A DNA stretch of 64,000 nt from an uncultured Candidatus Saccharibacteria bacterium (GTDB lineage Bacteria; Patescibacteriota; Minisyncoccia; UBA9983): contig CAYTKF010000002.1 of assembly GCA_964438405.1 (NCBI GenBank), positions 12,404 through 76,403 on the forward strand, given 5' to 3'. A model generated the notes under the pieces. That model worked only from the letters and a program-made list of their open reading frames with translations, did not search any database and was not told the DNA's origin. The position numbers were made by a program, and so were the translations under genes. Shown here in pieces: positions 11,668 through 50,613 of this stretch (positions are counted from its first letter, which is position 1; every line of letters begins with the position of its first letter).

Positions 11668-11731
11668 GGGGTTCTTTGATAACAAAGACCCCTTTCTGTT
11701 TAATACGGCTACCAAATGTTATAATTATTTT

Positions 11732-12475
11732 ATGAAACCCAAAGTTGCAATTTATGATTTTACAGACTGCGAGGGATGCGAAGTGAAGCTTATTTCTCTG
11801 CGCGAGAAATTACTTTTGATTGAAGATAAATTAAATATTGTTAACTGGCGTTTTGGTCAGGAAAAATTTAATGCCGGGCCCTATGACATTACAATTATAG
11901 AGGGAACGCCTATTACAGAAAGCGAAGTTAAATTATTAAAAGAATTAAGGCAAAATTCAAAAGTTTTAATTGCTCTTGGCGCCTGCGCTGGACTGGGCGG
12001 CATTCCCGCAATCATTCCGCAAAAAGACAGAAAATTTTGGTACGATAAAATTTACACTTCGCAATACACGCCCCAGGGCATAGACGCCTTACCGCTCTCT
12101 GCTTACGTACCAATTGATTTTACTATTCACGGATGTCCGGTTGATGAAAATGAGGTGGTGCGTGTCGTGGAGGAACTTTTAAGCGGTAAAAAACCACATT
12201 ACAGGGGCTATTCCGTATGTTTTGAGTGCAAGCTGGCTGGCAACGAGTGCAGAATAATAAATAACAAGCCGTGTCTTGGTCCCATAACGCAAGGCGGATG
12301 CAATGCAGTTTGTATCACGGGCGGCTCGCCGTGTTACGGATGTTTTGGTTTGCGAAGCGAGGCAAATATTCCAGCGCTTATAAAAATTTTAGAAAAACTA
12401 ACTAATATTAAGGTTGTAGAAAATTATCTCAGTATGTTTCATAATAGAACAAAAGAAATAAAAAATGATCACTAA
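11732..12475 (+). CDS. hydD: [NiFe]-hydrogenase small (delta) subunit
   Basis: MKPKVAIYDFTDCEGCE N-terminal Cys motif plus further Cys clusters, typical of group-3 small subunits and NuoB-like proteins. Confidence 0.7.
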   Translation: MKPKVAIYDFTDCEGCEVKLISLREKLLLIEDKLNIVNWRFGQEKFNAGPYDITIIEGTPITESEVKLLKELRQNSKVLIALGACAGLGGIPAIIPQKDRKFWYDKIYTSQYTPQGIDALPLSAYVPIDFTIHGCPVDENEVVRVVEELLSGKKPHYRGYSVCFECKLAGNECRIINNKPCLGPITQGGCNAVCITGGSPCYGCFGLRSEANIPALIKILEKLTNIKVVENYLSMFHNRTKEIKNDH

Positions 12476-33000: not shown

Positions 33001-33270
33001 ATGTCCTTAATGAGAAGACTTGAAAATTTACAGAAAAAGCCCGAATCAATAAGGAGGCGGGTTTTATTTGTAAGCGTGGCAGTGATAATGTTTATTGTTA
33101 TTGTTATCTGGATTTCTACTTTTAAAATTTCTCTTAAGCCGGCAGAAGAGGCAGAAGCTGATTTCACTCCCTTTAAAATTTTTATAGACGTTGCAAAAGA
33201 CGGCTATAACGTTTCCATTGGAAGCGTTAAGACCGTGTTCGACCAAATAATGAAAATAAAAAATGAGTGA
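33001..33270 (+). CDS. Small membrane-anchored hypothetical protein
   Basis: 89 aa with one TM ([18 protein letters not shown]). Overlaps the gyrA start. Confidence 0.4.
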
Positions 33271-35701
33271 TAAAGACAAAAAAATAATTCCGGCTGAGAT
33301 AAGCAGGGAGATGCGCGCGTCTTATCTTGACTATGCCATGTCCGTGATTGTTTCGCGCGCTCTGCCTGATGTTCGGGACGGACTCAAACCTGTCCATCGC
33401 AGAATCCTTTATTCTATGCACGAACTAGGGCTTGACCATTCAGCGAAATTTCGGAAGTCAGCATTAATTGTCGGAGATACACTCGGAAAATATCATCCCC
33501 ATGGCGACGTTGCCGTTTACGACACCATGGCCAGAATGGCACAGGATTTTTTGATGAGGTATCCGCTTGTTGATGGTCAGGGCAATTGGGGTTCTGTTGA
33601 CGGCGACTCGCCAGCTGCCATGCGTTACACAGAGGCAAAAATGACTTCCATCGCCGGCGAAATGCTCAGGGATATAGAAAAAGAAACAGTTGATTTCCGT
33701 CCCAATTACGACAATCGCCTTAAAGAGCCAGTGGTTTTACCCAGTCGCATCCCCAATCTTCTTATAAATGGTTCTTTGGGTATTGCCGTTGGTATGGCCA
33801 CAAATATTCCTCCGCACAATCTGACTGAAGTTGTGGATGCCACTAGCTATCTCATAGATAATCCCAAGGCAGATACAGAAGATTTGATGCAGTTTATAAA
33901 GGGACCGGATTTTCCCACCGGTGGTTTAATTTTTAATAATAATGATATCCAACAGGCCTATGCAACAGGCAGAGGCGGAGTGGTCACGCGCGGCGAGGCG
34001 GAAATTGTGGAAAAGAAAACAGGCAACTTTCAGATTTTAATTTCGTCAATTCCTTATCAGGTTAATAAATCAGAATTAATTATGGGAATGGCAGAATTGG
34101 TGCACGAAAAAAAAATAGAAGGTATAAAAGATATCCGCGACGAATCAGACAGAGAGGGTTTGCAGATTGCCATTGATTTGAAACAAGGTATAAACCCGCA
34201 GAAAATTTTAAATAATTTATACAAACACACTGCTTTAGAGCGCACTTATCATTTTAATATGATTGCCTTGATTGACGGAGGCATCCAGCCCCAGGTTCTG
34301 CGCCTGGAGGATATTCTTAAGAATTTTATAGAACACAGGAGAATTGTTGTGGAGCGCAGGGCCAAGTTTGAGCTTAACCGCGCCCTGGAGCGCGCGCATA
34401 TTTTGGAAGGGCTCAAAAAAGCGCTTGACCACATTGACGCCATCATAAAAATAATTAAGGCATCAGCAGATAAGGAAGTCGCGCATAAGAACCTGATGAA
34501 AAAGTTTGATTTCTCTGACGCACAGGCAACAGCCATTTTAGAAATGAAATTGCAGACACTGGCTGGTCTTGAAAGACAAAAAATAGAAAATGAACTGGAA
34601 GAAAAAATAAAACTCATAAAAGAATTGCGTGTGCTTCTCGCAGACCCGAAGAAAATTTTAAAAGTCATCAAAGACGAGCTGCTTGAAATTAAAAATAAAT
34701 ACGGAGATGAAAGGAAGACAAAGATTATGGCCCGGGCTGCCAAGGTGATGTCAAATGATGATTTGGTGCCGGAAAAAGAACAGGTAATGACTTTAACCTC
34801 AGGCGGATATATCAAGCGCACAGATCCCGAGGCATATAAGGCGCAGAAGCGTGGCGGCATTGGAGTTATTGACATGGATACCAAAGAAGAGGATTTTGTA
34901 AATATTTTTGTCACCGCAAACACGCATGATGATTTATTGTTTTTTACAGACAAAGGAAAGGCCTATCAGATAAAAATGTATGATTTGCCGGAAGGCAAAC
35001 GTGCGACCAAAGGCAAATCAATTGTTAATTTTCTTTCCACAACCGGCGAGGAAAAAGTTACATCTGTTTTAGTATTTCCCAAGTCGGCAAAAGAAATGCC
35101 TGGTTCGCTTGCAATGGTTACAAAAAATGGTGTTGTTAAAAAGGTTGATGTTTCGAGTTTTAAGGAAGTGAGGCGCAATGGAATCATCGCCATAAAACTT
35201 TCCAAGGACGATGAACTCAAATTCAGTTTTTTGGTGAATAAGAGCGAGAATATAATTTTGGCCAGCAAACGTGGCCAGTCAATAATGTTTAAAGAATCTG
35301 ATGTGCGCGCAATGGGAAGATCTGCCGGCGGAGTCCGGGCAATAAGATTAAAAACAGATGAATTAGTGGGCGCAGGTGCGGCCAATCCCAAAGACAAAGA
35401 GCAGCATTTCTTGACTATGAGCAAAAAAGGATTTGGCAAAAAAACCAGCATCAAGGGTTACCGTTTGCAGAAACGCGGCGGTTCGGGAATTAAAACAGCA
35501 AAAATTACGGAAAAGACCGGCCCGCTAATGATTGCCAAAGTTGTTGACCCGGAGTCGCAAGAAATTATAGCCATCTCTCAAAAAGGACAGGTGATAAGAA
35601 CAACTATGAACAGCATTCCAATTTTGGGCAGACAGACCCAGGGCGTTAGAATAATGAAATTAAAAGCAGGGGATTCAATCGCCTCATTAACATGCTTGTA
35701 A
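33263..35701 (+). CDS. gyrA: DNA gyrase subunit A
   Basis: [26 protein letters not shown], active-site region DGxGNWGSxDGD, and a C-terminal beta-pinwheel region. Confidence 0.95.
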
Positions 35702-35726: not shown

Positions 35727-36266
35727 GTGTTTGTCAGACCTGAGGAAGTTATAAAAAATTTTGGACTTGAACCGGGAATGATGGTGGCTGATTTTGGCTG
35801 CGGTCTCGGCCATTATTCTCTTGCCGCGGCAAAAAGAGTTGCTCCAAACGGCGTTGTCTATGCAATTGACGTGCAAAAAGAACTGCTTCAATCGGTAAAA
35901 TCTCAGGCTGAGCTGGACCAGATTAAAAATCTCCAGATAATCTGGGCTGACCTTGAAGTTCCCAATGGCTCCCGTCTCAATGTCGGCGCCCTTGATTTTA
36001 TTATCATCTCCAATATCTTATTTCAGGCTCAACACAGGGAACAGCTTGCAAAAGAGGCTTTCAGAATTTTAAAAGACGGCGGGAAAACTGGTATAATAGA
36101 ATGGGAACCGTATCAGAAAGATTTGGCTCTTAAGGCTGGTCCCCCTCCGGAAAAAAGAATTTCCCAAGAGGAAATAAAAAAAATATTTATGGCAAACGGT
36201 TTCAAAATTGATAAAGAATTTGTTCCCGGAGACGACCATTACGGATTAATATTTCGTAAAGCATGA
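35727..36266 (+). CDS. Class I SAM-dependent methyltransferase
   Basis: VADFGCGLGHYS (motif I GxGxG) and DFIIISNI (motif II). Confidence 0.65.
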   Translation: MFVRPEEVIKNFGLEPGMMVADFGCGLGHYSLAAAKRVAPNGVVYAIDVQKELLQSVKSQAELDQIKNLQIIWADLEVPNGSRLNVGALDFIIISNILFQAQHREQLAKEAFRILKDGGKTGIIEWEPYQKDLALKAGPPPEKRISQEEIKKIFMANGFKIDKEFVPGDDHYGLIFRKA

Positions 36267-37582
36267 GCAAACTTCAGATAATTTTAATCGCCGTATTTTC
36301 AATAGTCGCGCTTATAGCAGTTTTAATGTTTGCTGGTTTGATACCCGGTTTTAAGGGCGGGGGCGGACAGATAACAGGTGCGGCAGTAACAATGTGGGGG
36401 ATATTTCCACAGCAACAGATGACACAACTTGTTCAAACCCTAAACGAAAACAACAAAGCCCTTTTTCAGCTTTCTTACAAAGAGCAGAAACTAGTTGATT
36501 ATAGAGATACGCTTTTAAATGCCATGGCCTCAGGCAACGGTCCTGATATTTGGATGATGACGCAGGATATCATAATAAGCGATAAATCAAAAGTTTATCT
36601 TATACCATTTCAATCCATCAATGAAAGAGATTTTAAAGATACTTTTATAGATGAAGGGGAATTATTTTTTAATTATCAGAAAGATGTTTCCAATAATACG
36701 ACAAAAAGCATAATCGGACTGCCTTTGGCCATAGACCCGATTGTCCTTTTTTGGAACAAGGATATTTTTTCTTCCAACGGCGTCAGCCAGCCCCCGAAGA
36801 CATGGGATGAATTTATGACAGATGTTCAGACATTCACTCAAAAAGACGAGGCCGGAAATATAATTACGGCCGGTACTGCAATGGGCAAATTTTCCAACAT
36901 CAAGAACGCAAAATATATTCTTTCTATGCTTATACTTCAAGGCGGAAATGAAATAATAGAGCCGGATACAATGGATGTTGTTTTGGGAGAAAAGGGAAAT
37001 AATCTCATTGACCCAGCAGAAAGCGCCCTAAGGTTTTTTAACGAATTTTCCAATCCCAATAAAATTTCTTACACCTGGAACGAAGCCTTGCCTTCCTCTG
37101 AAACAATGTTTTCCAACGGCTCTTTGGCAATGTATTTCGGTTTTGCCAGCGAAATGGATACCATAAAACAAAAAAATCCCCATCTTAATTTTGACATCAC
37201 AGAAGTTCCGCAGATAAAAGATAGTAAAAACAAAACAACATTTGGAAAAATTTACGGCTTAGTTATTTCCAAGTCCTCTAAAAATTTACAGGCGTCGTTC
37301 TCCGCAATCGCGGCAATGGCCAATGCTGATTTTGAGCGGCAATTTTCAAATGCATTTAATCTTGGTCCAGCAAGAAGAGATATATTGGCGGAAAAAGCAA
37401 CCAGCCCGTTTTTATCCGTTGTCTACAAGTCATCAATAATGTCCAAGGCGTGGCTGGAACCGGACCCGGCGCAAGTTTCAGCCATTTTTAAAAATATGGT
37501 AGAATCAACAGCATCAGGCAGGACAAATTTTTCCGATGCCATCAGCAATGCAAAAAGACAGATAGAACAGTTGTTGAGGTAA
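36263..37582 (+). CDS. Extracellular solute-binding protein (ABC transporter SBP family 1-like) with N-terminal anchor
   Basis: N-terminal TM. GLPLAIDPIVLFWNKDIF resembles the SBP_bac_1 core. 439 aa. Confidence 0.5.
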   Translation: MSKLQIILIAVFSIVALIAVLMFAGLIPGFKGGGGQITGAAVTMWGIFPQQQMTQLVQTLNENNKALFQLSYKEQKLVDYRDTLLNAMASGNGPDIWMMTQDIIISDKSKVYLIPFQSINERDFKDTFIDEGELFFNYQKDVSNNTTKSIIGLPLAIDPIVLFWNKDIFSSNGVSQPPKTWDEFMTDVQTFTQKDEAGNIITAGTAMGKFSNIKNAKYILSMLILQGGNEIIEPDTMDVVLGEKGNNLIDPAESALRFFNEFSNPNKISYTWNEALPSSETMFSNGSLAMYFGFASEMDTIKQKNPHLNFDITEVPQIKDSKNKTTFGKIYGLVISKSSKNLQASFSAIAAMANADFERQFSNAFNLGPARRDILAEKATSPFLSVVYKSSIMSKAWLEPDPAQVSAIFKNMVESTASGRTNFSDAISNAKRQIEQLLR

Positions 37583-37596
37583 ATTAAAAACGTAAA

Positions 37597-38031
37597 ATGA
37601 AAAATGCAAAATTAAAATCTAAAATTCAAAATTGTTTTAAGTTTTTAGTTGTCGTTTTTAGTTTTTCATTTTTACTTTTAAATTTGAGCTTCGTTCACGC
37701 TGCTGCTCTTGTTCCCTGTGGAACAAAAGATAACCCTACTGCCTGCACCATCTGCGATCTCTTTAAGCTTGTCAAAAATATTGTTAATTTTCTTACCATT
37801 GATATTGCTACGCCATTGGCAATTATTATTTTGATTTACGGTGGAGTGAAATTGATAACTGCCGGCGGGTCAGAAGAAAAAGTAAAACAGGGCCAGACAG
37901 CAGTGAGAAGGGCGGCTTACGGCTTATTGTTTGTTTTCGGCGCCTGGCTCATAGTAAATACTCTTTTGACCTGGGTTGGAAACAGCGATTTATTAAAGTC
38001 TTATTGGCCAGGACTTAGTGGCTGTGTATAA
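37597..38031 (+). CDS. VirB2/TrbC-like pilin-type small membrane protein, paralog 1
   Basis: Signal peptide, then helix-polar loop-helix LAIIILIYGGVKLITAGGSEEKVKQGQ...YGLLFVFGAWLIV. One of four tandem paralogs. Confidence 0.45.
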   Translation: MKNAKLKSKIQNCFKFLVVVFSFSFLLLNLSFVHAAALVPCGTKDNPTACTICDLFKLVKNIVNFLTIDIATPLAIIILIYGGVKLITAGGSEEKVKQGQTAVRRAAYGLLFVFGAWLIVNTLLTWVGNSDLLKSYWPGLSGCV

Positions 38032-38072
38032 AATTTTTGATGAATAAAAATATTTTGGTATAATAAATAAAG

Positions 38073-38423
38073 ATGGGCAATAAAATTAAAAAAATATTTT
38101 TCTGGATAGGGGTGAATATGATTTTAATCAGGCCAGCAATGGCCAGCACTTGCGTCAGCGGAGGCGGGCTTACTAATCCGTTAAATTCCTGTTCTTTTGC
38201 AGAATTAGTTACAACCATTGCCAATTTGGCAATGAAAATCGGCATTCCCATTGCAGCCATATTTATAATTTACGCTGGCTTGCAATTTGTCACAGCCAGG
38301 GGAAACGAAGAAAAATTAAAATCAGCAAAGACAAATTTTTACTGGGCAATGATAGGCACAGCCATACTTTTGGGAGCAAATGTCATTGCCACAGCAATAT
38401 CAGAAACAATCAAAGGGTTTTAA
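38073..38423 (+). CDS. VirB2/TrbC-like pilin-type small membrane protein, paralog 2
   Basis: IAAIFIIYAGLQFVTARGNEEKLKSAKT...AMIGTAILLGANVIATA. Confidence 0.45.
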   Translation: MGNKIKKIFFWIGVNMILIRPAMASTCVSGGGLTNPLNSCSFAELVTTIANLAMKIGIPIAAIFIIYAGLQFVTARGNEEKLKSAKTNFYWAMIGTAILLGANVIATAISETIKGF

Positions 38424-38460
38424 AATTATTCACCTTGTCAAATAATTTTAAATTTCTGGA

Positions 38461-38727
38461 ATGCAATATTATTATACATATATACTAAAATCAGAGAAGG
38501 ATGGTAAATTATATACTGGATATACAAAAAATTTAAAATTAAGATTTGAGCAACATATTAAAGGATTAATAGAATCAACCAAAAACAGGAAGCCATTAAA
38601 ATTAATATATTATGAAGCATGTTTAAATCAGCAAGATGCCACGAAGAGAGAAAAGTACTTAAAGACATATTTAGGAAAAATGTTTTTAAGAAACAGGCTT
38701 GCTAGGTGGATTTCACAAAGTGATTAA
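38461..38727 (+). CDS. GIY-YIG nuclease domain protein (YhbQ/UPF0213-like)
   Basis: YYTYILKSEKDGKLYTGYTKNLKLRFEQH matches the GIY-x10-YIG...R..H core. 88 aa. Confidence 0.75.
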   Translation: MQYYYTYILKSEKDGKLYTGYTKNLKLRFEQHIKGLIESTKNRKPLKLIYYEACLNQQDATKREKYLKTYLGKMFLRNRLARWISQSD

Positions 38728-38787
38728 TCTACGATAGCTCAAATCTTATTTAACAGGGTAAAGGTCGAAAAATAAAACATAAAATTT

Positions 38788-39120
38788 ATGAAAAAATTTA
38801 TCGCAATCGGTTTAGCATTAGCGCCGTCACTGGCATTTGCGGCCGATATCAATTCTATATTAGGAGTGATAAGAAACATTCTTAATACGCTTGTTCCGCT
38901 TCTTATTGGTATTGCAGTTGTTGTTTTCCTTTGGGGAGTTATCAAATATATTACTGCCGGAGGAGATGAGGAAAAAAGAAAAGAGGCGCGCAATATGATG
39001 ATGTACGGCATTATCGGTTTGTTTGTGATGGTGGCTGTCTGGGGTTTGGTTGCTGTTTTGGGCAACACTTTGGGTGTTCAGCCCGGAGGTACAGCACCAG
39101 GCGTTCCCACACTCCCGTAA
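38788..39120 (+). CDS. VirB2/TrbC-like pilin-type small membrane protein, paralog 3
   Basis: Signal peptide MKKFIAIGLALAPSLAFA. LLIGIAVVVFLWGVIKYITAGGDEEKRKEARN...YGIIGLFVMVAVWGLV. Confidence 0.45.
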   Translation: MKKFIAIGLALAPSLAFAADINSILGVIRNILNTLVPLLIGIAVVVFLWGVIKYITAGGDEEKRKEARNMMMYGIIGLFVMVAVWGLVAVLGNTLGVQPGGTAPGVPTLP

Positions 39121-39124
39121 TCTT

Positions 39125-39382
39125 ATGAGTTCAGCCGCAGCCGACACTTTAATTTCCAAAATAAATACACAGATTCTCAATCCCATTATTGGGTTATTAA
39201 TTGCCATTGGTTTGGTTGTTTTTCTTTACGGTGTGGTGGAATTTCTTGCCGGAGCAGATAATCAGGAAAAAAGAGAGCAGGGCAAAAAACATATGATTTG
39301 GGGAATTATCGGCCTGTTCATAATGGTTGGCGTGTTTGGTTTGATGGAGGTAGTTGTGAATTTTATAAACAGTTTGAAGTAA
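39125..39382 (+). CDS. VirB2/TrbC-like pilin-type small membrane protein, paralog 4
   Basis: IGLLIAIGLVVFLYGVVEFLAGADNQEKREQGKK...WGIIGLFIMVGVFGLM. Start placed at the internal Met after the paralog 3 stop. Confidence 0.4.
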   Translation: MSSAAADTLISKINTQILNPIIGLLIAIGLVVFLYGVVEFLAGADNQEKREQGKKHMIWGIIGLFIMVGVFGLMEVVVNFINSLK

Positions 39383-39385
39383 AAA

Positions 39386-39424
39386 GAAAAAAGGGCATCC
39401 CGCTACAGCTGGATGCCTTTTGAT
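39386..39424. terminator. Bidirectional rho-independent terminator
   Basis: AAAAAGGGCATCC-CGCTACAGCT-GGATGCCCTTTTGATTT. Confidence 0.7.
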
Positions 39425-39443
39425 TTGTACAAAAAAGTGCTAA

Positions 39444-40121
39444 TTATTTTTTCTCTATCCAGAGATTTGCGGAAAAATTTTCTTTATCCTTAATCCAGCC
39501 AATGGCTGAATTTTCTTCGGAATCGGGAGAAAATTGAAGATTGAAATCGCCCCAACCTCCAATATCTCTCCATCTTCCGTTATAGGAAATTCCGTCTTCA
39601 GAATTTCCCACAAGAGTTCCGTTTCCGCGGACGCCGATAAATTTTACCAAGAGAGATTTCTCGTCGCGTTTGTCTATGATGCAGGGCATGCATCTTTGAG
39701 AAACGAGACTTACCAGATTTTGGCCTGGCTGTAACTTCCAGCATAACCAGTAGCTGGGCTTGGCAGCGATTTCGCGAGTGATTTCCGGTTTGGACGTCCT
39801 AGCCGGCCGCAACCGTGGCTGCGCGGTTGCCTTCCGGCTTGCCGTGACAGGTAGTTCCAGTGGTACAGGAGTTTTGGAACTTTGATACTTCTGCCAGCCC
39901 CAGTATCCTCCGCCGGCCACTACGGCGATAAAGACCAGCCATCCCAGCCAAGCAAAACTGAATCTTCTTGGTGGCGCCGGCGTAGCTGGCACAGGTTTTG
40001 TTGGAGCAGGAGTTGGGGTCGCGTTTTTGATCCCTTTTTTTCTACTGGCCGTAATGAGAAAAATCACCAATAATACAATAGTTCCCAGGAAACTCCACAA
40101 GAGTAATTTGATGAACATCAA
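39444..40121 (-). CDS. Hypothetical bitopic membrane protein with a Pro/Thr-rich linker
   Basis: 225 aa, two TM segments. The linker is encoded by a GC-rich segment containing an imperfect palindrome (39795-39835). Confidence 0.4.
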   Translation of the reverse strand: MMFIKLLLWSFLGTIVLLVIFLITASRKKGIKNATPTPAPTKPVPATPAPPRRFSFAWLGWLVFIAVVAGGGYWGWQKYQSSKTPVPLELPVTASRKATAQPRLRPARTSKPEITREIAAKPSYWLCWKLQPGQNLVSLVSQRCMPCIIDKRDEKSLLVKFIGVRGNGTLVGNSEDGISYNGRWRDIGGWGDFNLQFSPDSEENSAIGWIKDKENFSANLWIEKK

Positions 40122-41290
40122 CTGCCACCTTTCTTGCCGAGCAATCCTTCAATAAAACCTTGAATGGATCCGAAGGGAAGAAAGAGTTTAGTGGCTTGGC
40201 CTTTGCTGGCTTCACGGATTGTTTCGCCGGCAAAAACCATCTCACCCTGCAATCCTTCTTCTTTGACCGCCAGCGTGATTTTTTTGAAACGATCATATTC
40301 AGCGTCACGTAGAGTGGCGATTCTTAGTGCCTCTCTATCGGCCGCAGCCTGCGCCGTGGCCTGCTTAGTGAATCCCTCTGGAAGCTCTACTTCAAGAAAC
40401 TGAATCCTCTTCACTTGTGCGCCGTATCTGTCCAAAACGTACTCTGTAAGTTGCATGCCTCCGCCAGTGAGTGACTTCAAGAAAGCTTCATCTTTATCAT
40501 GTTCCAAAACCTCCTTTTTTTGAAGTACCGCATCGTACTTATTCCAGGCAACCCACGATCTCAGCGCTGATTCAATGGCAAAAAGTGTGACATCAAGCCA
40601 CTTGTCAACGCGGAAGAGCGCCTTGTATGGATTTAGTATTCTAAGGGTTACCACCGCGTAGATAGTAACCGGCATCCAGCTATCTTTAACGTCAGCATCC
40701 CGGAGGATGATCAGGTAATTAGCGTCTCGCAAATAAATGTAGTCGAGTTGTTTTGAGAATGAAACAGCCCATTGTCCATTCGGAAGTTCTTTTTGAGAAA
40801 CAAAACCCTCCTCTGGTTTCTCCTCATTCACTTTTATGTTTCTAGTTACGACCCACCGGAAGTTGTATCGGTGGATCTCATCAACAGTGGGAATGCCCAA
40901 CCAACGGATTCCTCCAAGTTTTTTTCTTTTCTTCTCTTTTTTTAGTTCTTCGACGATATTTCCTTTTTCATCCTCTGTATATCCTTTATATGCCATCAGG
41001 CCCTTACGGAAAGATCCGGCCCGCACGACCGCTTTCCACTCGCCTTCGTTGACGAGCGTAAGGAAAAAATCCCGATCCGCGATCCAGCGGAGAATTATAG
41101 GCAAAAGGATTGGGCTCATAACAACAAGTGCCAAACCTACGCCTAACAAAATCGGAACCCAACTCGGAGCATTTGTCAGGGATTCTACTAAATCCGGTCC
41201 CAACAAAATAATCCCAAAAACTAGAAGTGAAGCCGAAATAACAACAAGTAGAGACAAAACAGCAAGAAAAACAATCTTGATAATCCTCAT
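40118..41290 (-). CDS. SPFH/band-7 (stomatin/prohibitin/HflC-like) domain membrane protein
   Basis: N-terminal TMs, then a PVTIYAVVTLRILNPYKALFRV-type SPFH core and a C-terminal coiled coil (AQAAADREALRIATLRDAEYDRF). Confidence 0.55.
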   Translation of the reverse strand: MRIIKIVFLAVLSLLVVISASLLVFGIILLGPDLVESLTNAPSWVPILLGVGLALVVMSPILLPIILRWIADRDFFLTLVNEGEWKAVVRAGSFRKGLMAYKGYTEDEKGNIVEELKKEKKRKKLGGIRWLGIPTVDEIHRYNFRWVVTRNIKVNEEKPEEGFVSQKELPNGQWAVSFSKQLDYIYLRDANYLIILRDADVKDSWMPVTIYAVVTLRILNPYKALFRVDKWLDVTLFAIESALRSWVAWNKYDAVLQKKEVLEHDKDEAFLKSLTGGGMQLTEYVLDRYGAQVKRIQFLEVELPEGFTKQATAQAAADREALRIATLRDAEYDRFKKITLAVKEEGLQGEMVFAGETIREASKGQATKLFLPFGSIQGFIEGLLGKKGGS

Positions 41291-41420
41291 CTCTTTTTAC
41301 CTCCCTTTCTTTCCTTTCCTTATTCAGTTGTTAAAACTGCAAATTCCGTACTCATTCATACTATATAAATATAAAAAAGTCAACCCTAAACAGGATTGAC
41401 CTTTTTAATCGGAATTATTT

Positions 41421-41636
41421 TTATGCCATCGGGGCCACTGCTTTTCTGCCCATTTTTCCCACAGCAAAAATCAAGTAGAGAGCCGAGAGTCCAACCAAAA
41501 CATAAACCACGCGCGACAGAGCTGACATGTCTCCCAAAACAGCTGCAACCAAATCCCAGTTAAGAAGTCCAACAAGTCCCCAGTTTAGACCGCCAATGAT
41601 AACAAGTATTATTGCTATCCAATCAAGCGTTTTCAT
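41421..41636 (-). CDS. DUF378-like small membrane protein
   Basis: 71 aa. DWIAIILVIIGGLNWGLVGLLNWDLVAAVLG is typical of the DUF378/YuzA family. Confidence 0.6.
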   Translation of the reverse strand: MKTLDWIAIILVIIGGLNWGLVGLLNWDLVAAVLGDMSALSRVVYVLVGLSALYLIFAVGKMGRKAVAPMA

Positions 41637-41803
41637 AAATTATTTTAAAATTGCGTTTATAAAAATGACCTTTCTTATATTTTACCACTTATCTATAATC
41701 TTTTAATTAAAAAGTGGATAAAACCCCAAAAACAAAGGCCGCCCATGGCTAGGGCGACCTTATTAAATATCGCATATTCAGCGTTACATCTATTACAACA
41801 AGC

Positions 41804-42106
41804 TCAATGCGGTTTAGGTTTTCTTTTTTCTAGTTTTTCTTCTATTTTCTTTTCCGCGCGTTCCCGATTGAGTACTATTCTGGCCAATTCTAATTGATAA
41901 CTTGGCGGTTCGTCAGGATATAAACTTTTTATTATTCCTATTTGTTTTTTGAGTTCCGGATCAAGAGCTTTTTTTATCAGCTCGCCCTTTTCATTAAAAA
42001 TGTTTCCAAGCGCGTCTTGAAATTGGCCGTTGCCAATCGGCTTTAATGCCTCGCCCTCTTTGGGCTCTTCAAACATCGGCATTGTGAACGGGTCTCTTTC
42101 GCTCAT
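41804..42106 (-). CDS. Hypothetical small protein
   Basis: 100-aa charged ORF followed by a terminator hairpin at 41740-41768. Confidence 0.4.
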   Translation of the reverse strand: MSERDPFTMPMFEEPKEGEALKPIGNGQFQDALGNIFNEKGELIKKALDPELKKQIGIIKSLYPDEPPSYQLELARIVLNRERAEKKIEEKLEKRKPKPH

Positions 42107-42209
42107 AAATTAATTATAACTTATCTTAATGTTATTTCAATTATCTCTGAGCGTCCAGTGGTGCGCATTGCCGGACCCCATGTGCCCACACCACTTGAGG
42201 TATAAATAA

Positions 42210-42252
42210 TTATGTTCAACATTAATTATGTTCAACATCTTATGTTCAACAT
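42210..42252. repeat. Three tandem copies of TTATGTTCAACAT, the last extended to GTTCAACATCGGAAGTCGC
   Basis: Copies at 42210-42222, 42226-42238 and 42240-42252. The motif GTTC(A/G)ACATCGGAAGTC recurs at 47949-47964. Confidence 0.7.
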
Positions 42253-42406
42253 CGGAAGTCGCACACCTAAGGCGATGACCGAAGCCAGAAATAAATACCA
42301 AAAAATTCCCAATGCAATGCCGGCAAGAATATAAAACCATCGGCTGAAAAAATTATCAACCACATGCGACAAAAAAGCCGAGGCAATAAACTCGCAACAT
42401 ACAATT

Positions 42407-42481
42407 TGGCTCCGGCACCTGGATTCGAACCAGGAACCTTCTCCTTAACAGGGAGCCGCTCTACCGTTGAGCTATGCCGGA
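42407..42481 (-). tRNA. tRNA-Asn(GTT) with encoded CCA
   Basis: Reverse complement reads TCCGGCA-TAGCTCAACGGTAGAGCG-GCTCC CTGTTAA GGAGA-AGGT-TCCTGG-TTCGAAT-CCAGGT-GCCGGA-GCCA. Confidence 0.8.
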
Positions 42482-42706
42482 ATCTGTTATGATTTTAATG
42501 GAAAATTTTTATACATGCAAGTTAATTTTTAAAAAAGAAAAACTCGCCTTTTTAGGGGACGGGTTTGTTGAGTGTGGCCGGTAAGCTTTGTCCCATTGCG
42601 GGACTTCCAGAGGAGTCTGGAGGGGCTGCTGCCGACCACGCATTAGGGAGCAACATCCTAATTAAAGTTTATCCCTTATATATTTATCGTCAATACAATT
42701 TATCTT

Positions 42707-42735
42707 TGACAAAAATATTTCAATATGCTAATATT
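42707..42735 (+). promoter_or_regulatory. Sigma70-like promoter (TTGACA-17-TAATAT) of the cold-shock gene
   Basis: TCTTTGACAaaaatatttcaatatgcTAATATtaat about 60 nt upstream of the csp ATG. Confidence 0.5.
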
Positions 42736-42793
42736 AATAACGTCAGAGATGGGGTCGCATTTCTAGATAGTCTTTATAATTTAACAACGAAAC

Positions 42794-42994
42794 ATGACAG
42801 GAACTATCAAGACACTTGTTGCAGACAGAGGATTTGGATTTATTGCCCGCGAAGGCGAGACAAAAGATCTTTTCTTTCACTCAAAAGATTTGAGTGGTGT
42901 GACATATGATGAATTGAAGATAGGTGATTCCGTTACTTTTGAGGTTGAGGAGGGCGAAAAAGGCCCTGCAGCCAAAAACGTGGCGCGCGCCTAA
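42794..42994 (+). CDS. csp: Cold-shock protein (CspA family)
   Basis: GTIKTLVADRGFGFIAREG...DLFFHSKDL contains the RNP1/RNP2 motifs. 66 aa. Confidence 0.9.
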   Translation: MTGTIKTLVADRGFGFIAREGETKDLFFHSKDLSGVTYDELKIGDSVTFEVEEGEKGPAAKNVARA

Positions 42995-43010
42995 AACTTC
43001 AGTTTTAAAG

Positions 43011-43041
43011 AAAAACCATCCGCCCAGGGCGGATGGTTTTT
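43011..43041 (+). terminator. Rho-independent terminator
   Basis: AAAAACCATCCGCCC-AGG-GCGGATGGTTTTTCTTTTT. Confidence 0.8.
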
Positions 43042-43077
43042 CTTTTTGTTGCAACTTGTTAAGATAAAAATAGTCCA

Positions 43078-43093
43078 ACATTCTTGAGAATGT
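43078..43093. promoter_or_regulatory. Operator-like palindrome ACATTCT-TG-AGAATGT overlapping the putative arsR promoter
   Basis: 7-bp perfect inverted arms. TTGAGA lies inside it as a possible -35, and TAATAT sits 17 nt downstream. The ATG at 43119 follows within ~7 nt, so the mRNA may be leaderless. Confidence 0.55.
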
Positions 43094-43118
43094 AGGAATA
43101 TTATTGTAATATTAAAAT

Positions 43119-43406
43119 ATGGAAAAGAAAATAAAAACATCAAAACAAGTTGAGAGGCACCTTAAGGGTGTCGCAAACCATCGCCGTATTGATATTTTAA
43201 TTTTAGTCGGCGAGAGCAGGGGAATTACTCTTGAAAAAATTGCAGAGAATTTAGACGGCAACATTAAAACAATTTCAGAACATACGCGCCGTTTGGTACA
43301 TGCCGGTTTATTAAACAAAAAATATCAAGGCCGAAACGTAATTCATACCCTGTCGCCCTACGGAGAAATTATATCCAGATTTATAAAAACATTCTCACAT
43401 TCTTGA
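43119..43406 (+). CDS. ArsR/SmtB-family metalloregulatory transcriptional repressor
   Basis: Winged-helix pattern LKGVANHRRIDILILVGESRGITLEKIAENLDGNIKTISEHTRRLVHAGLL. Confidence 0.75.
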   Translation: MEKKIKTSKQVERHLKGVANHRRIDILILVGESRGITLEKIAENLDGNIKTISEHTRRLVHAGLLNKKYQGRNVIHTLSPYGEIISRFIKTFSHS

Positions 43407-43420
43407 GAATATGAGAATGT
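43389..43420. promoter_or_regulatory. Second operator-like palindrome spanning the arsR stop
   Basis: ACATTCTCA-CATTCTTGAGAATA-TGAGAATGT. 9-bp outer arms plus an inner copy that matches the upstream operator with one mismatch. Confidence 0.5.
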
Positions 43421-43467
43421 TTGTGTGTTGGTTTTCTTTTTCTGTAAGTTTGGTAAAATTTAAACAT

Positions 43468-43626
43468 ATGAACAAAGGCACATCAGGAGCAGTCTACGGG
43501 TTAGGCCTGATCGGCGCGGCAATTTATTACATCCAGCAGGCCGACACCTTCTGGCTCGGCGTCCTGGGCATACTAAAGGCAATTGTCTGGCCGGCATTTC
43601 TAATTTACAAACTACTGGGTTTGTAA
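43468..43626 (+). CDS. Small two-TM membrane protein
   Basis: MNKGTSGAVYGLGLIGAAIYYI...LGILKAIVWPAFLIYKLLGL. Confidence 0.45.
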   Translation: MNKGTSGAVYGLGLIGAAIYYIQQADTFWLGVLGILKAIVWPAFLIYKLLGL

Positions 43627-43633
43627 AGTAAAA

Positions 43634-43828
43634 ATGGAATGTCGAAAAGAGAAAAATTTAAAGACGTGTCCGTGCACCTATCCGGATTGCGCCCGAAAAG
43701 GAATTTGCTGTGAATGTATACGTCACCATCTGGCAAACGATGAACTGCCCGGCTGCTGTTTTTCCAAAGAAACAGAAAAAACTTTCGACCGCTCAATCGA
43801 GAGGTTTATTAAAGAAAGAGTTAGTTAA
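43634..43828 (+). CDS. Small Cys-rich protein (9 Cys in 64 aa), candidate metal-binding protein
   Basis: CRKEKNLKTCPCTYPDCARKGICCECIRHH...PGCC. Third gene after the ArsR/SmtB-like regulator. Confidence 0.45.
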   Translation: MECRKEKNLKTCPCTYPDCARKGICCECIRHHLANDELPGCCFSKETEKTFDRSIERFIKERVS

Positions 43829-44023
43829 ATAAGATTATGAAAAACTACGCCAAAGTTGGCAATAGGCAAGGTAAGCCGGCGTATCGGACGCCGTCGAGTT
43901 TTCGGTATCGGAAATTTATGAAAGTCAGCAAAAATAAAAAGAGGCTGACAGATATTGCATAATATGTTAATATCCTTGGAAGAAAGCGATTAAAGGTCAT
44001 TATAAGCTTTTATCAATTAATTT

Positions 44024-45283
44024 ATGCACAAAAAAACAATATTATCGTTATCCATCGTTGCTCTCCTGATGACAGGATCAATGATGTTGGCCGGCCATGC
44101 GGCAGCTGCCTCGCTTACCCAGAGCCAGATCCAGGCAGTTGTATCTCTGCTTCAGGCCTTTGGAGTCAGCACAACAACGATTTCATCCGTTCAGACCACG
44201 CTTTCCGGAGGCGAAGTTACAAGCACTTCGGCAACCAGCAGCACAACATTGATGACGGGAAATATGATAGGGTTCCTGCGTTTTGGTGCCAAAGGAAATG
44301 GCGTCAAGATACTGCAGATTGTTCTTGCGGCTGATCCATCTGTCTATCCTGAGGGTGTTATCAGTGGATACTTCGGTACACTGACGCAGAACGCACTTAA
44401 GCGCTATCAGAAAAAGTACGGGCTTGAGCAGGTCGGCTACATTGGACCCAAGACTTTAAAAAAACTTGAGGATGATATGGATGAGAATCCTGTTGCTACC
44501 GAATCGAACGACTCTAATAATGCGACCTCAACGGTCAGTGTCGGAAACAACAAACATCTGTGCGTTGCTGTTCCGCCCGGACACCTTATAGCTCCGGGGT
44601 GGCTGCGCAAACAAGGAGGCCAGCGACCGGAAATCCCTTCTTGCCAAGTTCTTCCGCCCGGCATTCAGAATAAATTATCAGGCGGCACTACCACGACACC
44701 GGACACAACAGCACCGGTGCTCTCGGCTATCACAGTGGGTTCCATTACCTCTTCAAGTGCAGTGATTTCCTGGACAACCAACGAGAATGCGACAAGCAAG
44801 GTGAATTACGGAACAACAACTGCCTACGGTTCTGAGGCAGCGCTCGGTAACACACTTTCCCTTACTCACAGCGTTTCGCTCTCTGGTCTCGCGAGCTCAA
44901 CACTTTACCACTTCCGCGTGACTTCCAAAGACTCCTCGCTAAATACTGCTACATCGAGCGATATGACATTTACAACGCTTGCTGCACCTGACACGACAGT
45001 GCCTGCCATTTCGGGGGTATCGGTAGGATTCATTGCTTCAACCTCGGCACAGATTTTATGGACAACCAACGAGAACGCGACAAGCAAGGTCTATTTCAGA
45101 ACAGTAACACCGCTTATCCTGAGCACCGCGGCAACAACTTCCTCAACCGTGCTCTCCACCTCGCACTCCCTGACACTTTCGCCGTTGACTGCTTCAACGA
45201 CCTACTACTACATTATTGAATCAGCGGACGCTTCAAATAATACTGCAACCACAAGCCAGGCCAGCTTTTTAACGACTAACTAA
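44024..45283 (+). CDS. Secreted protein with a peptidoglycan-binding domain and two fibronectin-III-like repeats
   Basis: Signal peptide. PG_binding_1-like GVKILQIVLAADPSVYPEGVISGYFGTLTQNALKRYQKKYGL. Two ~100-aa repeats each containing ISWTTNENATSKV ... LYHFRV / YYYII. Confidence 0.55.
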   Translation: MHKKTILSLSIVALLMTGSMMLAGHAAAASLTQSQIQAVVSLLQAFGVSTTTISSVQTTLSGGEVTSTSATSSTTLMTGNMIGFLRFGAKGNGVKILQIVLAADPSVYPEGVISGYFGTLTQNALKRYQKKYGLEQVGYIGPKTLKKLEDDMDENPVATESNDSNNATSTVSVGNNKHLCVAVPPGHLIAPGWLRKQGGQRPEIPSCQVLPPGIQNKLSGGTTTTPDTTAPVLSAITVGSITSSSAVISWTTNENATSKVNYGTTTAYGSEAALGNTLSLTHSVSLSGLASSTLYHFRVTSKDSSLNTATSSDMTFTTLAAPDTTVPAISGVSVGFIASTSAQILWTTNENATSKVYFRTVTPLILSTAATTSSTVLSTSHSLTLSPLTASTTYYYIIESADASNNTATTSQASFLTTN

Positions 45284-50223: not shown

Positions 50224-50613
50224 ATGTTGAATTTTAAACGGGAAGAATTTGAAAAATTTGTTGAGGAAGGAATAAAAGCCATTCCGGAAAAATTTTTGCA
50301 CAAGCTGAATAATGTGGCAGTTGTTGTTGAGGATGAGCCGACTAAAGAACAGAAAAATAAACTGGGTCTGGCTAGCGGCACAACGCTTCTCGGCCTGTAT
50401 GAAGGCGTGCCCCAGCTAAAACGGGGAACAAATTACAGCGCGGTTCTGCCTGACAAAATAACCATTTTTCAAAAACCCATTGAGGCAGTGGCCCGCGGTG
50501 AAAAAGATATTAAAGAAATTGTTAAAAATACCGTCTGGCACGAAATCGCCCATCATTTTGGAATGGATGAGGCGCGGGTGTGCAAAGCAGAAGCCAAAAG
50601 ACGCAAAAAATGA
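50224..50613 (+). CDS. Zincin-like metallopeptidase-fold protein (minimal HExxH protein)
   Basis: C-terminal WHEIAHHFGMDEA (HExxH). 129 aa. Confidence 0.6.
   Translation: MLNFKREEFEKFVEEGIKAIPEKFLHKLNNVAVVVEDEPTKEQKNKLGLASGTTLLGLYEGVPQLKRGTNYSAVLPDKITIFQKPIEAVARGEKDIKEIVKNTVWHEIAHHFGMDEARVCKAEAKRRKK

What the first reader, a model, noticed from the sequence alone, without database searches (positions are those of the whole stretch)
37597..39382. Tandem array of four VirB2/TrbC-like pilin-type paralogs interrupted by a GIY-YIG nuclease gene
Four consecutive small genes (144, 116, 110 and ~85 aa) share the architecture signal peptide, hydrophobic helix, short charged loop (GG.EEK / G.NEEK / GGDEEKRKE / GADNQEKRE), second hydrophobic helix. 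This is the topology of conjugative/T4SS VirB2/TrbC pilins, and such families are expanded in CPR episymbionts. A stand-alone 88-aa GIY-YIG domain gene (38461-38727) sits in the middle of the array, which suggests paralog diversification or cassette-like turnover. No VirB4, VirB6 or VirD4 gene is in the window. The array could supply variable surface-filament subunits for a secretion or attachment system encoded elsewhere.
Basis: partly seen in the sequence, partly recalled or inferred. Interest (0 to 1): 0.65.

Follow-up and report, generated by a model that had tools for sequence, protein, structure and literature searches.

The report
VirB2-like pilin operon with selfish insertion
Four small membrane-hairpin genes of the known VirB2-like "T4SS pilin" family sit in a gene cluster that is conserved across a whole class of ultra-small (Patescibacteria) bacteria, and the nuclease gene splitting them is a small selfish element that landed in a spacer; such pilin arrays have already been described, so this is an ordinary new example.

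Summary
Four + strand genes (37597-38031, 38073-38423, 38788-39120, 39125-39382) are divergent paralogs (18-42% identity). All four pass the Pfam gathering score for PF18895 (T4SS_pilin). An 88-aa GIY-YIG gene (38461-38727) lies between genes 2 and 3. One correction: gene 4 has no signal peptide.

The family call is right, but TrbC/VirB2 proper (PF04956) stays below its curated cut-off. No VirB4, VirB6 or VirD4 gene is in the window.

"Cassette-like turnover" is not supported. In about 80 Paceibacteria-type genomes the same locus recurs: gyrA, a methyltransferase, a membrane-anchored solute-binding protein, then pilin types A-B-C(1-5 copies)-D in fixed order. Each window gene is the positional ortholog of its type. 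The pilins diverge no faster than their neighbours.

The GIY-YIG gene is absent from that spacer in every relative examined. It belongs to a 332-bp unit bounded by inverted repeats that recurs in unrelated contexts, so it is a selfish insertion.

VirB2-like pilin arrays in Patescibacteria are already published (PMC10633639, PMC12102498). This is a new member of a known kind. Pilus formation and the T4SS partners remain inferred.

The parts
35727..36266 (+). Class I SAM-dependent methyltransferase (179 aa). Conserved first gene of the MT-SBP-pilin module. Its stop overlaps the SBP start by 4 nt.
   Evidence: Pfam Methyltransf_31/25/11. Found directly upstream of the SBP in most of the 77 related loci that include the SBP gene.
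36263..37582 (+). Membrane-anchored family-1 extracellular solute-binding protein (439 aa; N-terminal TM helix). Conserved gene immediately upstream of the pilin array.
   Evidence: PF13416/PF01547. Distant similarity to sugar/maltose SBPs in the PDB, best E 2e-10. Present upstream of the array in 77 of 86 loci, the remainder having no detectable SBP gene (several are short or cut contigs). The SBP stop to first pilin start is mostly -4 to +20 nt.
37597..38031 (+). Pilin type A (p1, 144 aa): signal peptide, Cys-containing N-terminal segment, two-helix hairpin, Cys-ending tail.
   Evidence: PF18895 34.9 bits (GA 26.6); PF04956 25.0 bits (GA 27.9). Positional ortholog of the first array gene in L003 (55%) and L004 (43%). 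C41 and C50 are invariant in 46/46 type-A sequences.
38073..38423 (+). Pilin type B (p2, 116 aa): signal peptide plus hairpin.
   Evidence: PF18895 36.6 bits. Ortholog of the second array gene in L003 (58%) and L004 (78%).
38428..38762 (+). Compact mobile unit carrying the GIY-YIG gene. Inverted-repeat arms at 38429-38445 (TTCACCTTGTCAAATAA) and 38746-38762 (TTATTTAACAGGGTAAA). Inserted in the B-C spacer.
   Evidence: Inverted repeat I2. DNA homology (77%) to copies in unrelated toxin-antitoxin contexts spans exactly 38428-38759. The B-C spacer is 33-57 nt in L003/L004 against 364 nt here.
38461..38727 (+). Stand-alone GIY-YIG nuclease-domain gene (88 aa).
   Evidence: PF01541 59.4 bits. 3946 homologs at E<=1e-10, at 71-84% identity among the near-full-length matches of the 120 best listed, mostly Patescibacteria but also Bacteroidota. 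Inside the array only in this lineage, out of about 86 loci.
38788..39120 (+). Pilin type C (p3, 110 aa): signal peptide plus hairpin plus Pro/Gly-rich tail. This is the type whose copy number varies (1-5) in relatives.
   Evidence: PF18895 54.7 bits. AlphaFold2 model pLDDT 83 with helices 21-56 and 61-94. Orthologs 57-65% in L003/L004. Copy-number survey.
39125..39382 (+). Pilin type D (p4, 85 aa): hairpin only, no signal peptide. Always the last, shortest gene of the canonical array.
   Evidence: PF18895 42.2 bits; NF045849 48.1 bits against a cut-off of 40. Orthologs 70% (L003) and 61% (L004), also without a signal peptide. Start codon assignment.
39444..40121 (-). Convergent 225-aa membrane-anchored protein of unknown family. 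A neighbour in some relatives only; the corresponding position in L004 holds an SLT lytic-transglycosylase protein.
   Evidence: No Pfam or NCBIfam hit. Homologs found in L013, L017 and L019. SLT protein at this position in L004.
40118..41290 (-). SPFH/Band-7 domain membrane protein (390 aa), convergent neighbour. Conserved next to the array in a subset of relatives.
   Evidence: PF01145 28.3 bits. Present in L003, L004, L013, L020 and L043.

Best explanation
The region is the distal part of a chromosomal operon that is conserved across Paceibacteria-type Patescibacteria. The order is (gyrA)-methyltransferase-membrane-anchored solute-binding protein-four VirB2-like pilin-family genes.

The four genes are not recent or shuffling copies. 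They are four ancient, differentiated types (A, B, C, D) kept in this order. The window has the minimal one-copy-each version.

Inferred mechanism:
- p1-p3 are exported by Sec and cut by signal peptidase I. p4 inserts without cleavage.
- All four sit in the membrane as two-helix hairpins with the charged GG(D/S)EEK loop on the cytoplasmic side.
- By analogy with VirB2/TraA, they are extracted and assembled by a monoderm-type T4SS (VirB4/VirB6-like genes elsewhere in the genome) into a surface filament or conduit used in the epibiotic lifestyle.
- C would be the bulk or amplifiable subunit. A would be a disulfide-bonded accessory subunit that can carry extra domains. D would be a specialised subunit.

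The GIY-YIG gene is not part of this system. It is a 332-bp selfish unit with inverted-repeat ends that inserted into the B-C spacer in this lineage without disrupting any gene.
For: Shown here:
- Family membership of all four genes (PF18895 above the gathering score; p4 above the NF045849 cut-off).
- Helical-hairpin model, pLDDT 83, and hydropathy topology.
- Positional orthology: 43-78% identity to the same-position gene, against 17-42% between paralogs.
- Conserved locus in the related genomes surveyed. 77 of 86 loci have the SBP directly upstream. 48/77 fit A+B+C+D strictly and 75/77 fit a relaxed order. C copy number is 1-5.
- The SBP stop and first pilin start overlap or lie within about 20 nt in most loci, as expected of an operon.
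- Relatives carry pilin hairpins fused to SLT lytic transglycosylase (L008, L073), to an Ig-like Big_5 domain (L012) or to fn3-like domains (L023). This fits an envelope-spanning or surface structure and a VirB1-like wall-lysis requirement.
- A VirD4-like coupling protein lies 5 kb from the array in L003.
- GIY-YIG as an insertion: absent from the array in all other loci; homology to copies in ParE/HicAB contexts ends at the inverted repeats.

From the literature:
- A pilin series inside the T4SS cluster is essential in Southlakia epibionticum (PMC10633639; PMC12857230).
Against: - No T4SS ATPase or channel gene is in the 64-kb window.
- None is a recurrent neighbour within +/-10 kb in relatives. 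The 75 largest neighbouring ORFs are dominated by IF-2 and Clp ATPases, and no VirB4 or coupling-protein family is among the 25 commonest. Physical linkage to a T4SS is therefore absent.
- The source genome could not be examined beyond the window.
- PF04956 is below its curated threshold.
- Sequence profiles reach solved VirB2 and TraM pilins only at non-significant E-values of 0.19-7.9.
- Foldseek of the model finds only generic helical hairpins, best E 0.67.
- No filament has been seen for any member of this family.
- The invariable linkage to a sugar-type SBP is not a feature of known T4SSs.
Confidence: 0.72

Rival explanations
1. The hairpin proteins are not T4SS pilus subunits. Together with the co-operonic membrane-anchored solute-binding protein they form a T4SS-independent envelope complex, for example a capture or uptake device for host-derived sugars or glycans. 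Homology to VirB2 would then reflect only a shared small-hairpin fold.
For: - The SBP-pilin junction is the most conserved feature of the locus (77/86 loci, mostly overlapping or under 20 nt apart).
- No ABC permease or ATPase accompanies the SBP. No T4SS gene is a recurrent neighbour.
- The SBP resembles sugar-binding proteins.
- Similarity to experimentally solved pilins is not significant.
Against: - PF18895 and NF045849 hits are above curated cut-offs, and these families come from conjugative-transfer contexts.
- Pilin-SLT fusions recall VirB1.
- A coupling protein lies near the array in L003.
- In Saccharimonadia the homologous arrays sit inside T4SS clusters.
Confidence: 0.15
2. The array is a fast-evolving, cassette-like set of variable surface subunits for antigenic or host-range variation, as with Bartonella Trw or Anaplasma VirB2 paralogs. 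The GIY-YIG nuclease would promote recombination among them.
For: - Paralogs are very divergent (18-42%).
- Type C copy number varies from 1 to 5 among genomes.
- The literature speculates on host adaptation.
Against: - Fixed A-B-C-D order with clear positional orthologs.
- Ortholog divergence is like or lower than that of neighbouring MT and SBP genes: median identity A 32.8, B 40.5, C 48.6, D 45.2 against MT 39.7 and SBP 36.9.
- Contigs from two other metagenome assemblies, covering 35783-44636, are 100% identical to the window.
- No pseudogene or silent cassettes in the window.
- The GIY-YIG gene is absent from all other arrays and is a self-contained mobile unit.
Confidence: 0.05
3. The small genes encode holin-, bacteriocin- or immunity-like membrane peptides unrelated to secretion.
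For: Small size, two TM helices and a charged loop are generic features shared with holins and some bacteriocin immunity proteins.
Against: - No holin or bacteriocin family appears even at E<=1.
- The context is a conserved housekeeping operon, not prophage or a bacteriocin locus.
- Signal peptides and domain fusions to SLT/Ig-like modules are present.
Confidence: 0.03

Closest known systems
VirB2-like pilin arrays of Patescibacteria (Quinonero-Coronel et al. 2025, PMC12102498; Wang et al. 2023, PMC10633639)
   Same: Same Pfam family (PF18895/PF04956 profiles). Tandem arrays of 2-11 genes, sometimes interrupted by a non-pilin gene. Low identity between members (reported mean 25%, max 54%; here 18-42%). 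Chromosomal, in monoderm ultra-small bacteria.
   Different: The characterised essential array (S. epibionticum) lies inside the T4SS cluster. This one is in a gyrA-methyltransferase-SBP operon with no T4SS gene within 64 kb. The fixed A-B-Cn-D paralog order and the SBP linkage are not mentioned in that paper: searches of its text for 'solute', 'substrate-binding' and 'gyrA' found nothing.
VirB2/TrbC/TraA conjugative pilins of diderm T4SSs (PF04956; T-pilus, F-pilus, pKM101 TraM)
   Same: Signal peptide followed by two hydrophobic helices joined by a short charged loop. Sub-threshold PF04956 matches cover the whole hairpin (p1 E 2.3e-5). VirB2 is among only four PDB sequences reached by the type-A profile at E<=10.
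   Different: Below the curated PF04956 threshold. The organism has no outer membrane. No cyclisation or acetylation signals were examined. There are four differentiated paralogs instead of one major pilin. No VirB5. Filament formation is unproven.
Mbov_0395/MMCAP2_0565 pilin-like conjugal transfer proteins of Mycoplasma ICEs (NCBIfam NF045849)
   Same: p4 passes the equivalog cut-off (48.1 vs 40 bits) and p3 nearly does (38.2). Small two-helix proteins of wall-less or monoderm T4SS (MPF-FATA-type) systems.
   Different: Not on an ICE. No relaxase, VirB4 or VirD4 nearby. p1 and p2 score far below the cut-off.
Multi-copy VirB2 paralogs of Bartonella Trw and Anaplasma T4SSs
   Same: Several sequence-divergent VirB2-family genes in tandem.
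   Different: Those are recent, lineage-specific amplifications thought to give antigenic or host variability. Here the paralogs are ancient, ordered and as conserved as their neighbours.
Free-standing GIY-YIG homing-type endonuclease genes / COG2827 (YhbQ-like, UPF0213) stand-alone GIY-YIG proteins
   Same: A single GIY-YIG domain of about 85-90 aa. Multi-copy, patchy distribution and very high identity across distant taxa, which suggests horizontal mobility.
   Different: No DNA-binding domain (I-TevI-type enzymes have one). The unit has conserved inverted-repeat ends and ORF-less derivatives. Nuclease activity and the mobility mechanism are untested.

Membership tests
Pfam PF18895 T4SS_pilin | Whole-protein HMM score at or above the gathering score (26.6 bits) | tested here: met
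   34.9, 36.6, 54.7 and 42.2 bits for p1-p4. Precomputed PF18895 hits are also recorded on the identical contigs.
Pfam PF18895 T4SS_pilin | Two long hydrophobic helices joined by a short charged loop (helical hairpin) | tested here: met
   AlphaFold2 model of p3: helices 21-56 and 61-94, pLDDT 83. Hydropathy for all four.
Pfam PF18895 T4SS_pilin | Encoded with, or dependent on, a type IV secretion system (VirB4 etc.) | tested here: not met
   No T4SS gene is among the window ORFs of 285 aa or more. None is a recurrent neighbour in relatives; only L003 has a VirD4-like gene 5 kb away. Presence elsewhere in the source genome could not be tested.
Pfam PF04956 TrbC/VirB2 pilin | HMM score at or above the gathering score (27.9 bits) | tested here: not met
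   p1 25.0 bits (E 2.3e-5), p2 22.0, p4 12.7, p3 none.
Pfam PF04956 TrbC/VirB2 pilin | Cleavable N-terminal signal peptide preceding the hairpin | tested here: inconclusive
   p1-p3 have a signal-like h-region and AXA sites by inspection and hydropathy; p4 has none. No dedicated signal-peptide predictor was available.
Pfam PF04956 TrbC/VirB2 pilin | Polymerises into an extracellular pilus | not testable with these tools
   Needs microscopy or biochemistry. Similarity to solved pilins is not significant.
NCBIfam NF045849 Mbov_0395 family pilin-like conjugal transfer protein | Score at or above the curated cut-off (40 bits) | tested here: inconclusive
   Met by p4 (48.1). Not met by p3 (38.2), p2 (20.4) or p1 (18.9).
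Patescibacterial 'VirB2 array' as defined in PMC12102498 | Two or more PF04956/PF18895 genes in tandem or separated by one non-pilin gene, with low identity between members | tested here: met
   Four genes, one intervening GIY-YIG gene, 18-42% identity. Definition taken.
Type IV pilus (T4P) pilins | Class III signal peptide / N-methylation motif (G|FTLIE) and a single N-terminal hydrophobic helix | tested here: not met
   No N_methyl or pilin family appears at E<=1. The sequences have type-I-like signal peptides and two TM helices.
Holins / small bacteriocin-type membrane peptides | Match to a holin or bacteriocin family, or a lysis-cassette or bacteriocin-locus context | tested here: not met
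   No such family appears at E<=1. The context is housekeeping.
GIY-YIG nuclease superfamily (PF01541) | HMM score at or above the gathering score (22.6 bits) | tested here: met
   59.4 bits, E 4.4e-16.
GIY-YIG homing endonucleases (I-TevI type, TIGR01453) | GIY-YIG domain joined to a DNA-binding domain; score at or above the cut-off (56 bits) | tested here: not met
   20.5 bits against 56.05. The protein is only 88 aa, a single domain.

The most novel reading that the evidence does not exclude
The gyrA-linked methyltransferase-SBP-pilin(A-B-Cn-D) operon may be a class-wide Paceibacteria apparatus that works independently of the dnaA-linked T4SS cluster. In this reading a membrane-anchored sugar-type binding protein is coupled to a VirB2-like filament or conduit built from four specialised subunits, used to capture or import host material.

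Separately, the interrupting GIY-YIG unit may represent an undescribed class of miniature structured mobile elements. The evidence is three mutually complementary strands forming a three-way junction, ORF-less derivatives, and insertion right at the 5' ends of genes.
Probability: 0.15. Interest if true: 0.7.

Novelty: new member of a known kind. Interest (0 to 1): 0.3.

Why it matters
Patescibacteria are monoderms, and their VirB2-like pilins are the only known case in which a Gram-positive-type T4SS might build a pilus. In the one genetically tractable species the pilin array is essential. This window adds no new kind of system.

The comparison does show three things for the Paceibacteria:
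- The pilin set is an ancient, ordered quartet of specialised paralogs.
- It is welded to a solute-binding protein gene.
- It is physically separate from T4SS ATPase genes.

That gives a concrete handle for asking what the subunits do: which is the major subunit, which is accessory, and whether the SBP is a partner. The GIY-YIG result removes a misleading cue, because the nuclease is a passenger and not a diversification device.

Tried and rejected
- **Foldseek of the p3 model against the PDB.** Only generic helical hairpins, best E 0.67 and no pilin. A two-helix hairpin is too simple for fold search to discriminate.
- **Profile-versus-PDB sequence searches.** The type-C profile reaches pKM101 TraM at E 0.19. 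The type-A profile reaches Agrobacterium VirB2 at E 1.7 and 7.9. I treat these as not significant.
- **Retrieving the remaining ~12.8 kb of the 76.8-kb source contig, and naming the organism.** Only short identical ENA contigs were returned, and the cluster carries no source name. T4SS genes elsewhere in the genome could not be checked.
- **Rfam on the GIY-YIG unit and on 13 loci with its ORF-less derivatives.** No family found.
- **RNAalifold on 16 ORF-less derivatives.** It recovered only the closing stem, with no covariation. That is uninformative because the 3' arm was fixed by my exact-match search pattern.
- **Holin/bacteriocin and type IV pilus readings.** Rejected on family scans.
- **The 110-aa TTG-start reading of p4 (39050).** Rejected in favour of ATG 39125.
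- **Promoter and terminator scans.** Consensus matches only; not used as evidence.
Full report
**1. The observation**

The ORF list confirms four consecutive + strand genes and an intervening gene:
- p1, 37597-38031, 144 aa
- p2, 38073-38423, 116 aa
- GIY-YIG gene, 38461-38727, 88 aa
- p3, 38788-39120, 110 aa
- a fourth ORF ending at 39382

The mechanical ORF for the fourth gene starts at TTG 39050 inside p3. The sensible start is ATG 39125, 4 nt after the p3 stop, which gives 85 aa. The same 85-aa gene is called on identical metagenome contigs.

Pairwise BLASTP among the four gives 18-42% identity with E from 6e-6 to 4e-21. An HMM built from them finds no further copy among the 733 six-frame ORFs of the window.

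Hydropathy shows an N-terminal signal-like segment plus two transmembrane helices in p1-p3, with AXA-type sites VHA|A, AMA|S and AFA|A. p4 has only the two helices. The description is therefore right except that p4 lacks a signal peptide. Its orthologs in L003 and L004 lack one too.

**2. Family assignment**

All four proteins pass the gathering score of Pfam PF18895, "Type IV secretion system pilin": 34.9, 36.6, 54.7 and 42.2 bits against 26.6.

p1 scores 25.0 bits (E 2.3e-5), p2 22.0 and p4 12.7, against 27.9.

In NCBIfam the only pilin-type family is NF045849, the Mbov_0395 pilin-like conjugal transfer protein of Mycoplasma ICEs. p4 passes it (48.1 against 40) and p3 nearly does (38.2).

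An AlphaFold2 model of p3, built on 49 homologs, is a signal helix followed by a two-helix hairpin (helices 21-56 and 61-94, mean pLDDT 83). Comparison with solved structures did not discriminate:
- Foldseek finds only generic hairpins (best E 0.67).
- Sequence profiles reach pKM101 TraM at E 0.19.
- They reach Agrobacterium VirB2 at E 1.7 and 7.9.

None of these is significant. No holin, bacteriocin or type IV pilus family appears even at E<=1.

The middle gene is a single GIY-YIG domain (PF01541, 59.4 bits).

**3. Surroundings in the window**

Every ORF of 285 aa or more in the 64-kb window was scanned. They are housekeeping or envelope genes: MurJ, LepA, a class I aminoacyl-tRNA synthetase and HisRS, TsaD, FtsA, FtsZ, MurB, GyrA, PolX, a NiFe-hydrogenase set, and peptidoglycan-binding and GH18 proteins. 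There is no VirB4, VirB6, VirD4 or relaxase.

Directly upstream of p1, on the same strand, lie three genes:
- GyrA, 33263-35701.
- A 179-aa SAM methyltransferase, 35727-36266.
- A 439-aa family-1 solute-binding protein with an N-terminal membrane anchor, 36263-37582. Its start overlaps the methyltransferase stop by 4 nt and it ends 14 nt before p1.

The SBP is a distant relative of sugar/maltose-binding proteins. Downstream and convergent are a 225-aa membrane protein of no known family and an SPFH/Band-7 protein.

**4. Related genomes**

Homologs of p3 are plentiful. There are 261 clusters at E<=1e-3, and where a source names them they come from Parcubacteria/Patescibacteria; NCBI calls some of them "pilin".

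Gene neighbourhoods of six homologs on long contigs all show methyltransferase, SBP and then 4-7 PF18895 genes. GyrA lies upstream in five of the six.

A scan of one genome per species returned 80 loci. Those with lineage names are Paceibacteria-type: Terry-, Lloyd-, Nomura-, Campbell-, Niyogi-, Taylor-, Giovannoni-, Vogel-, Kaiser-, Zambryski- and Wolfebacteria. These loci were selected by similarity to p3, so they sample the orthologous locus and not all pilin genes.

I built one HMM per window gene and its orthologs (types A-D) and typed every ORF:
- 77 of 86 loci contain the SBP directly upstream. The other nine have no detectable SBP gene; several of them are short or cut contigs.
- The SBP stop to first pilin start is mostly -4 to +20 nt.
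- The order A, B, C, D holds strictly in 48 of 77 and in relaxed form in 75 of 77.
- The commonest layouts are ABCCD (19), ABCCCD (16) and ABCD (7).
- Only type C varies much in copy number (1-5).

Each window gene matches the same-position gene of L003 and L004 far better (43-78% identity) than any paralog (17-42%). Type A carries two invariant cysteines ahead of helix 1 in 46 of 46 sequences.

Median identity of orthologs to the window genes:

| Gene | Median identity (%) |
|---|---|
| GyrA | 62.5 |
| Methyltransferase | 39.7 |
| SBP | 36.9 |
| Pilin A | 32.8 |
| Pilin B | 40.5 |
| Pilin C | 48.6 |
| Pilin D | 45.2 |

So the pilins are not hypervariable. Contigs from two other metagenome assemblies, which together cover 35783-44636, are 100% identical to the window. 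These results argue against cassette-like turnover and for four old, specialised subunits.

**5. Hints to function from relatives**

Some type-A/B genes are long fusions:
- a pilin hairpin followed by an SLT lytic-transglycosylase domain (L008, L073);
- an N-terminal Ig-like Big_5 domain (L012);
- an fn3-like domain ahead of a C-terminal hairpin (L023);
- three hairpins in one protein (L036).

In L004 the convergent downstream gene is an SLT protein. In L003 a VirD4-like coupling protein lies 5 kb downstream.

Against that, the 75 largest neighbouring ORFs across the loci are dominated by IF-2 (27) and Clp-type ATPases (13). No VirB4 or coupling-protein family is among the 25 commonest families. 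Single occurrences would not have been listed. The array is therefore not physically linked to T4SS machinery in this class.

**6. The GIY-YIG gene**

It lies inside the array only in the window's lineage. The B-C spacer is 33-57 nt in L003 and L004 but 364 nt here.

The protein has 3946 homologs at E<=1e-10. The near-full-length matches among the 120 best listed are 71-84% identical and include one from a Bacteroidota genome. Its closest full-length relative (84%) sits between ParE and HicAB toxin-antitoxin genes.

DNA homology to that copy (77%) spans exactly 38428-38759. It ends in inverted repeats at 38429-38445 and 38746-38762. The gene is therefore a self-contained mobile unit that landed in an intergenic spacer. 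It interrupts no gene.

Further details are listed under things noticed in passing:
- the right arm is the C-terminal coding sequence of canonical family members but is kept untranslated here;
- ORF-less derivatives exist;
- the elements sit at gene 5' ends.

**7. Comparison with what is known**

Wang et al. [quoted passage not shown]

Quinonero-Coronel et al. 2025 (PMC12102498) searched 3,035 Patescibacteria genomes with PF04956 and PF18895. They found VirB2-like pilins in 1,948 assemblies that also have VirB4, near virB4 in 1,135 of them. [quoted passage not shown]

A 2025 review highlights this as the one monoderm T4SS that may make a pilus (PMC12857230).

The finding is thus a new instance of a published kind. 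The 2025 paper's text does not mention 'solute', 'substrate-binding' or 'gyrA'. The fixed A-B-Cn-D order also appears to be additional detail. Both are refinements and not a new system.

**8. Mechanism and confidence**

Shown here:
- family membership;
- hairpin architecture;
- operon-like, class-wide conserved context;
- positional orthology;
- the mobile nature of the GIY-YIG unit.

Inferred:
- Sec export and signal-peptidase cleavage of A-C;
- N-out/C-out hairpins with a cytoplasmic charged loop;
- extraction and polymerisation by a T4SS encoded elsewhere;
- division of labour among A, B, C and D;
- any role of the SBP.

I put 0.72 on the statement as a whole (VirB2-like pilin-family operon plus a selfish insertion). 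I put roughly even odds on actual filament formation.

The main rival (0.15) is a T4SS-independent envelope complex working with the SBP. Antigenic-variation cassettes (0.05) and holin/bacteriocin peptides (0.03) are largely excluded.

**9. Verdict**

- The finding is a new member of a known kind.
- Interest is 0.3. A specialist would not be surprised by the array. The conserved SBP linkage, the ordered paralogs and the miniature GIY-YIG element are modest leads.

Noticed in passing
window 38428-38762; loci L092-L211: The GIY-YIG unit has three mutually complementary strands: a 5' arm with adjacent AATTTTAAATTT (38429-38455), an internal AAATTTAAAATTAAGATTTGAGC (about 38529-38551, coding KLRFE), and a 3' GCTCAAATCTTATTTAACAGGGT (38737-38759). 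In canonical family members the 3' strand encodes the C-terminus LKSYLTG*. In the window copy the ORF stops earlier, yet the 23-mer is kept untranslated and is 23/23 identical to L009. The exact 20-mer occurs in more than 120 metagenome contigs. Of 102 unique flanked copies, 98 have the inverse arm upstream and 72 carry a GIY-YIG ORF. About 29 are ORF-less elements, mostly 130-190 nt, which keep all three strands. In 17 of 18 the first hairpin is perfect or near-perfect, with different sequences. No Rfam family matches.
   Followed up: partly
loci L093, L094, L110, L114, L131, L167, L168, L171 and others: The ORF-less derivatives end ...TTATTTAACAGGGTAA and are followed at once by the ATG of unrelated host genes. 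Reading the N-terminal sequences only, I judged these to be S17, Ndk, SerRS, SSB, L22, ATP synthase b and a LexA-like protein. The element therefore sits exactly at gene starts and may supply the ribosome-binding region.
   Followed up: partly
L035 12963-13313, L041 11224-11538, L054 12165-12572 and 14901-15244, L066 5408-5753: Five of five more divergent stand-alone GIY-YIG genes near the pilin loci end 2-11 nt before, or overlap by 7-12 nt, a tRNA gene on the same strand (Leu, Gly, Ser, Ala, Leu). This suggests insertion at the 5' ends of tRNA genes.
   Followed up: partly
window 6831-9050 (+): The LepA/EF4 ORF (739 aa) contains an in-frame PD-(D/E)XK nuclease domain (PF13366, residues 84-196, E 1e-30) that splits its GTP-binding domain into two stretches. 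This could be a domain insertion or an intein-like or mobile insertion in an essential translation factor.
   Followed up: no
L008 7021-8145, L073 8068-9231, L012 5330-6322, L023 4758-6173, L036 8562-9587: In relatives the pilin hairpin is fused to other modules: a C-terminal SLT lytic transglycosylase, an N-terminal Ig-like Big_5 domain, fn3/Pur_ac_phosph_N-like domains, or three tandem hairpins in one protein.
   Followed up: partly
window 9598-13667 (+): A cluster of an Fe-S protein (Fer4_22), an Oxidored_q6 small subunit and a NiFeSe_Hases large subunit, which is a [NiFe]-hydrogenase-like set in an otherwise reduced Patescibacteria genome.
   Followed up: no
window 44024-45283, 47974-49374, 50580-51623: Several secreted or envelope proteins downstream of the array carry peptidoglycan-binding (PG_binding_1), fn3/Pur_ac_phosph_N-like and GH18 domains. 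These are possible host-cell-wall interaction factors.
   Followed up: no
locus titles (e.g. L013, L017, L024): Many species-representative MAGs carrying this Paceibacteria-type locus are titled 'uncultured Candidatus Saccharibacteria bacterium' (TPA assemblies). One short contig is titled Ignavibacteriaceae and one Gammaproteobacteria. These are probably mislabelled or mis-binned records.
   Followed up: no
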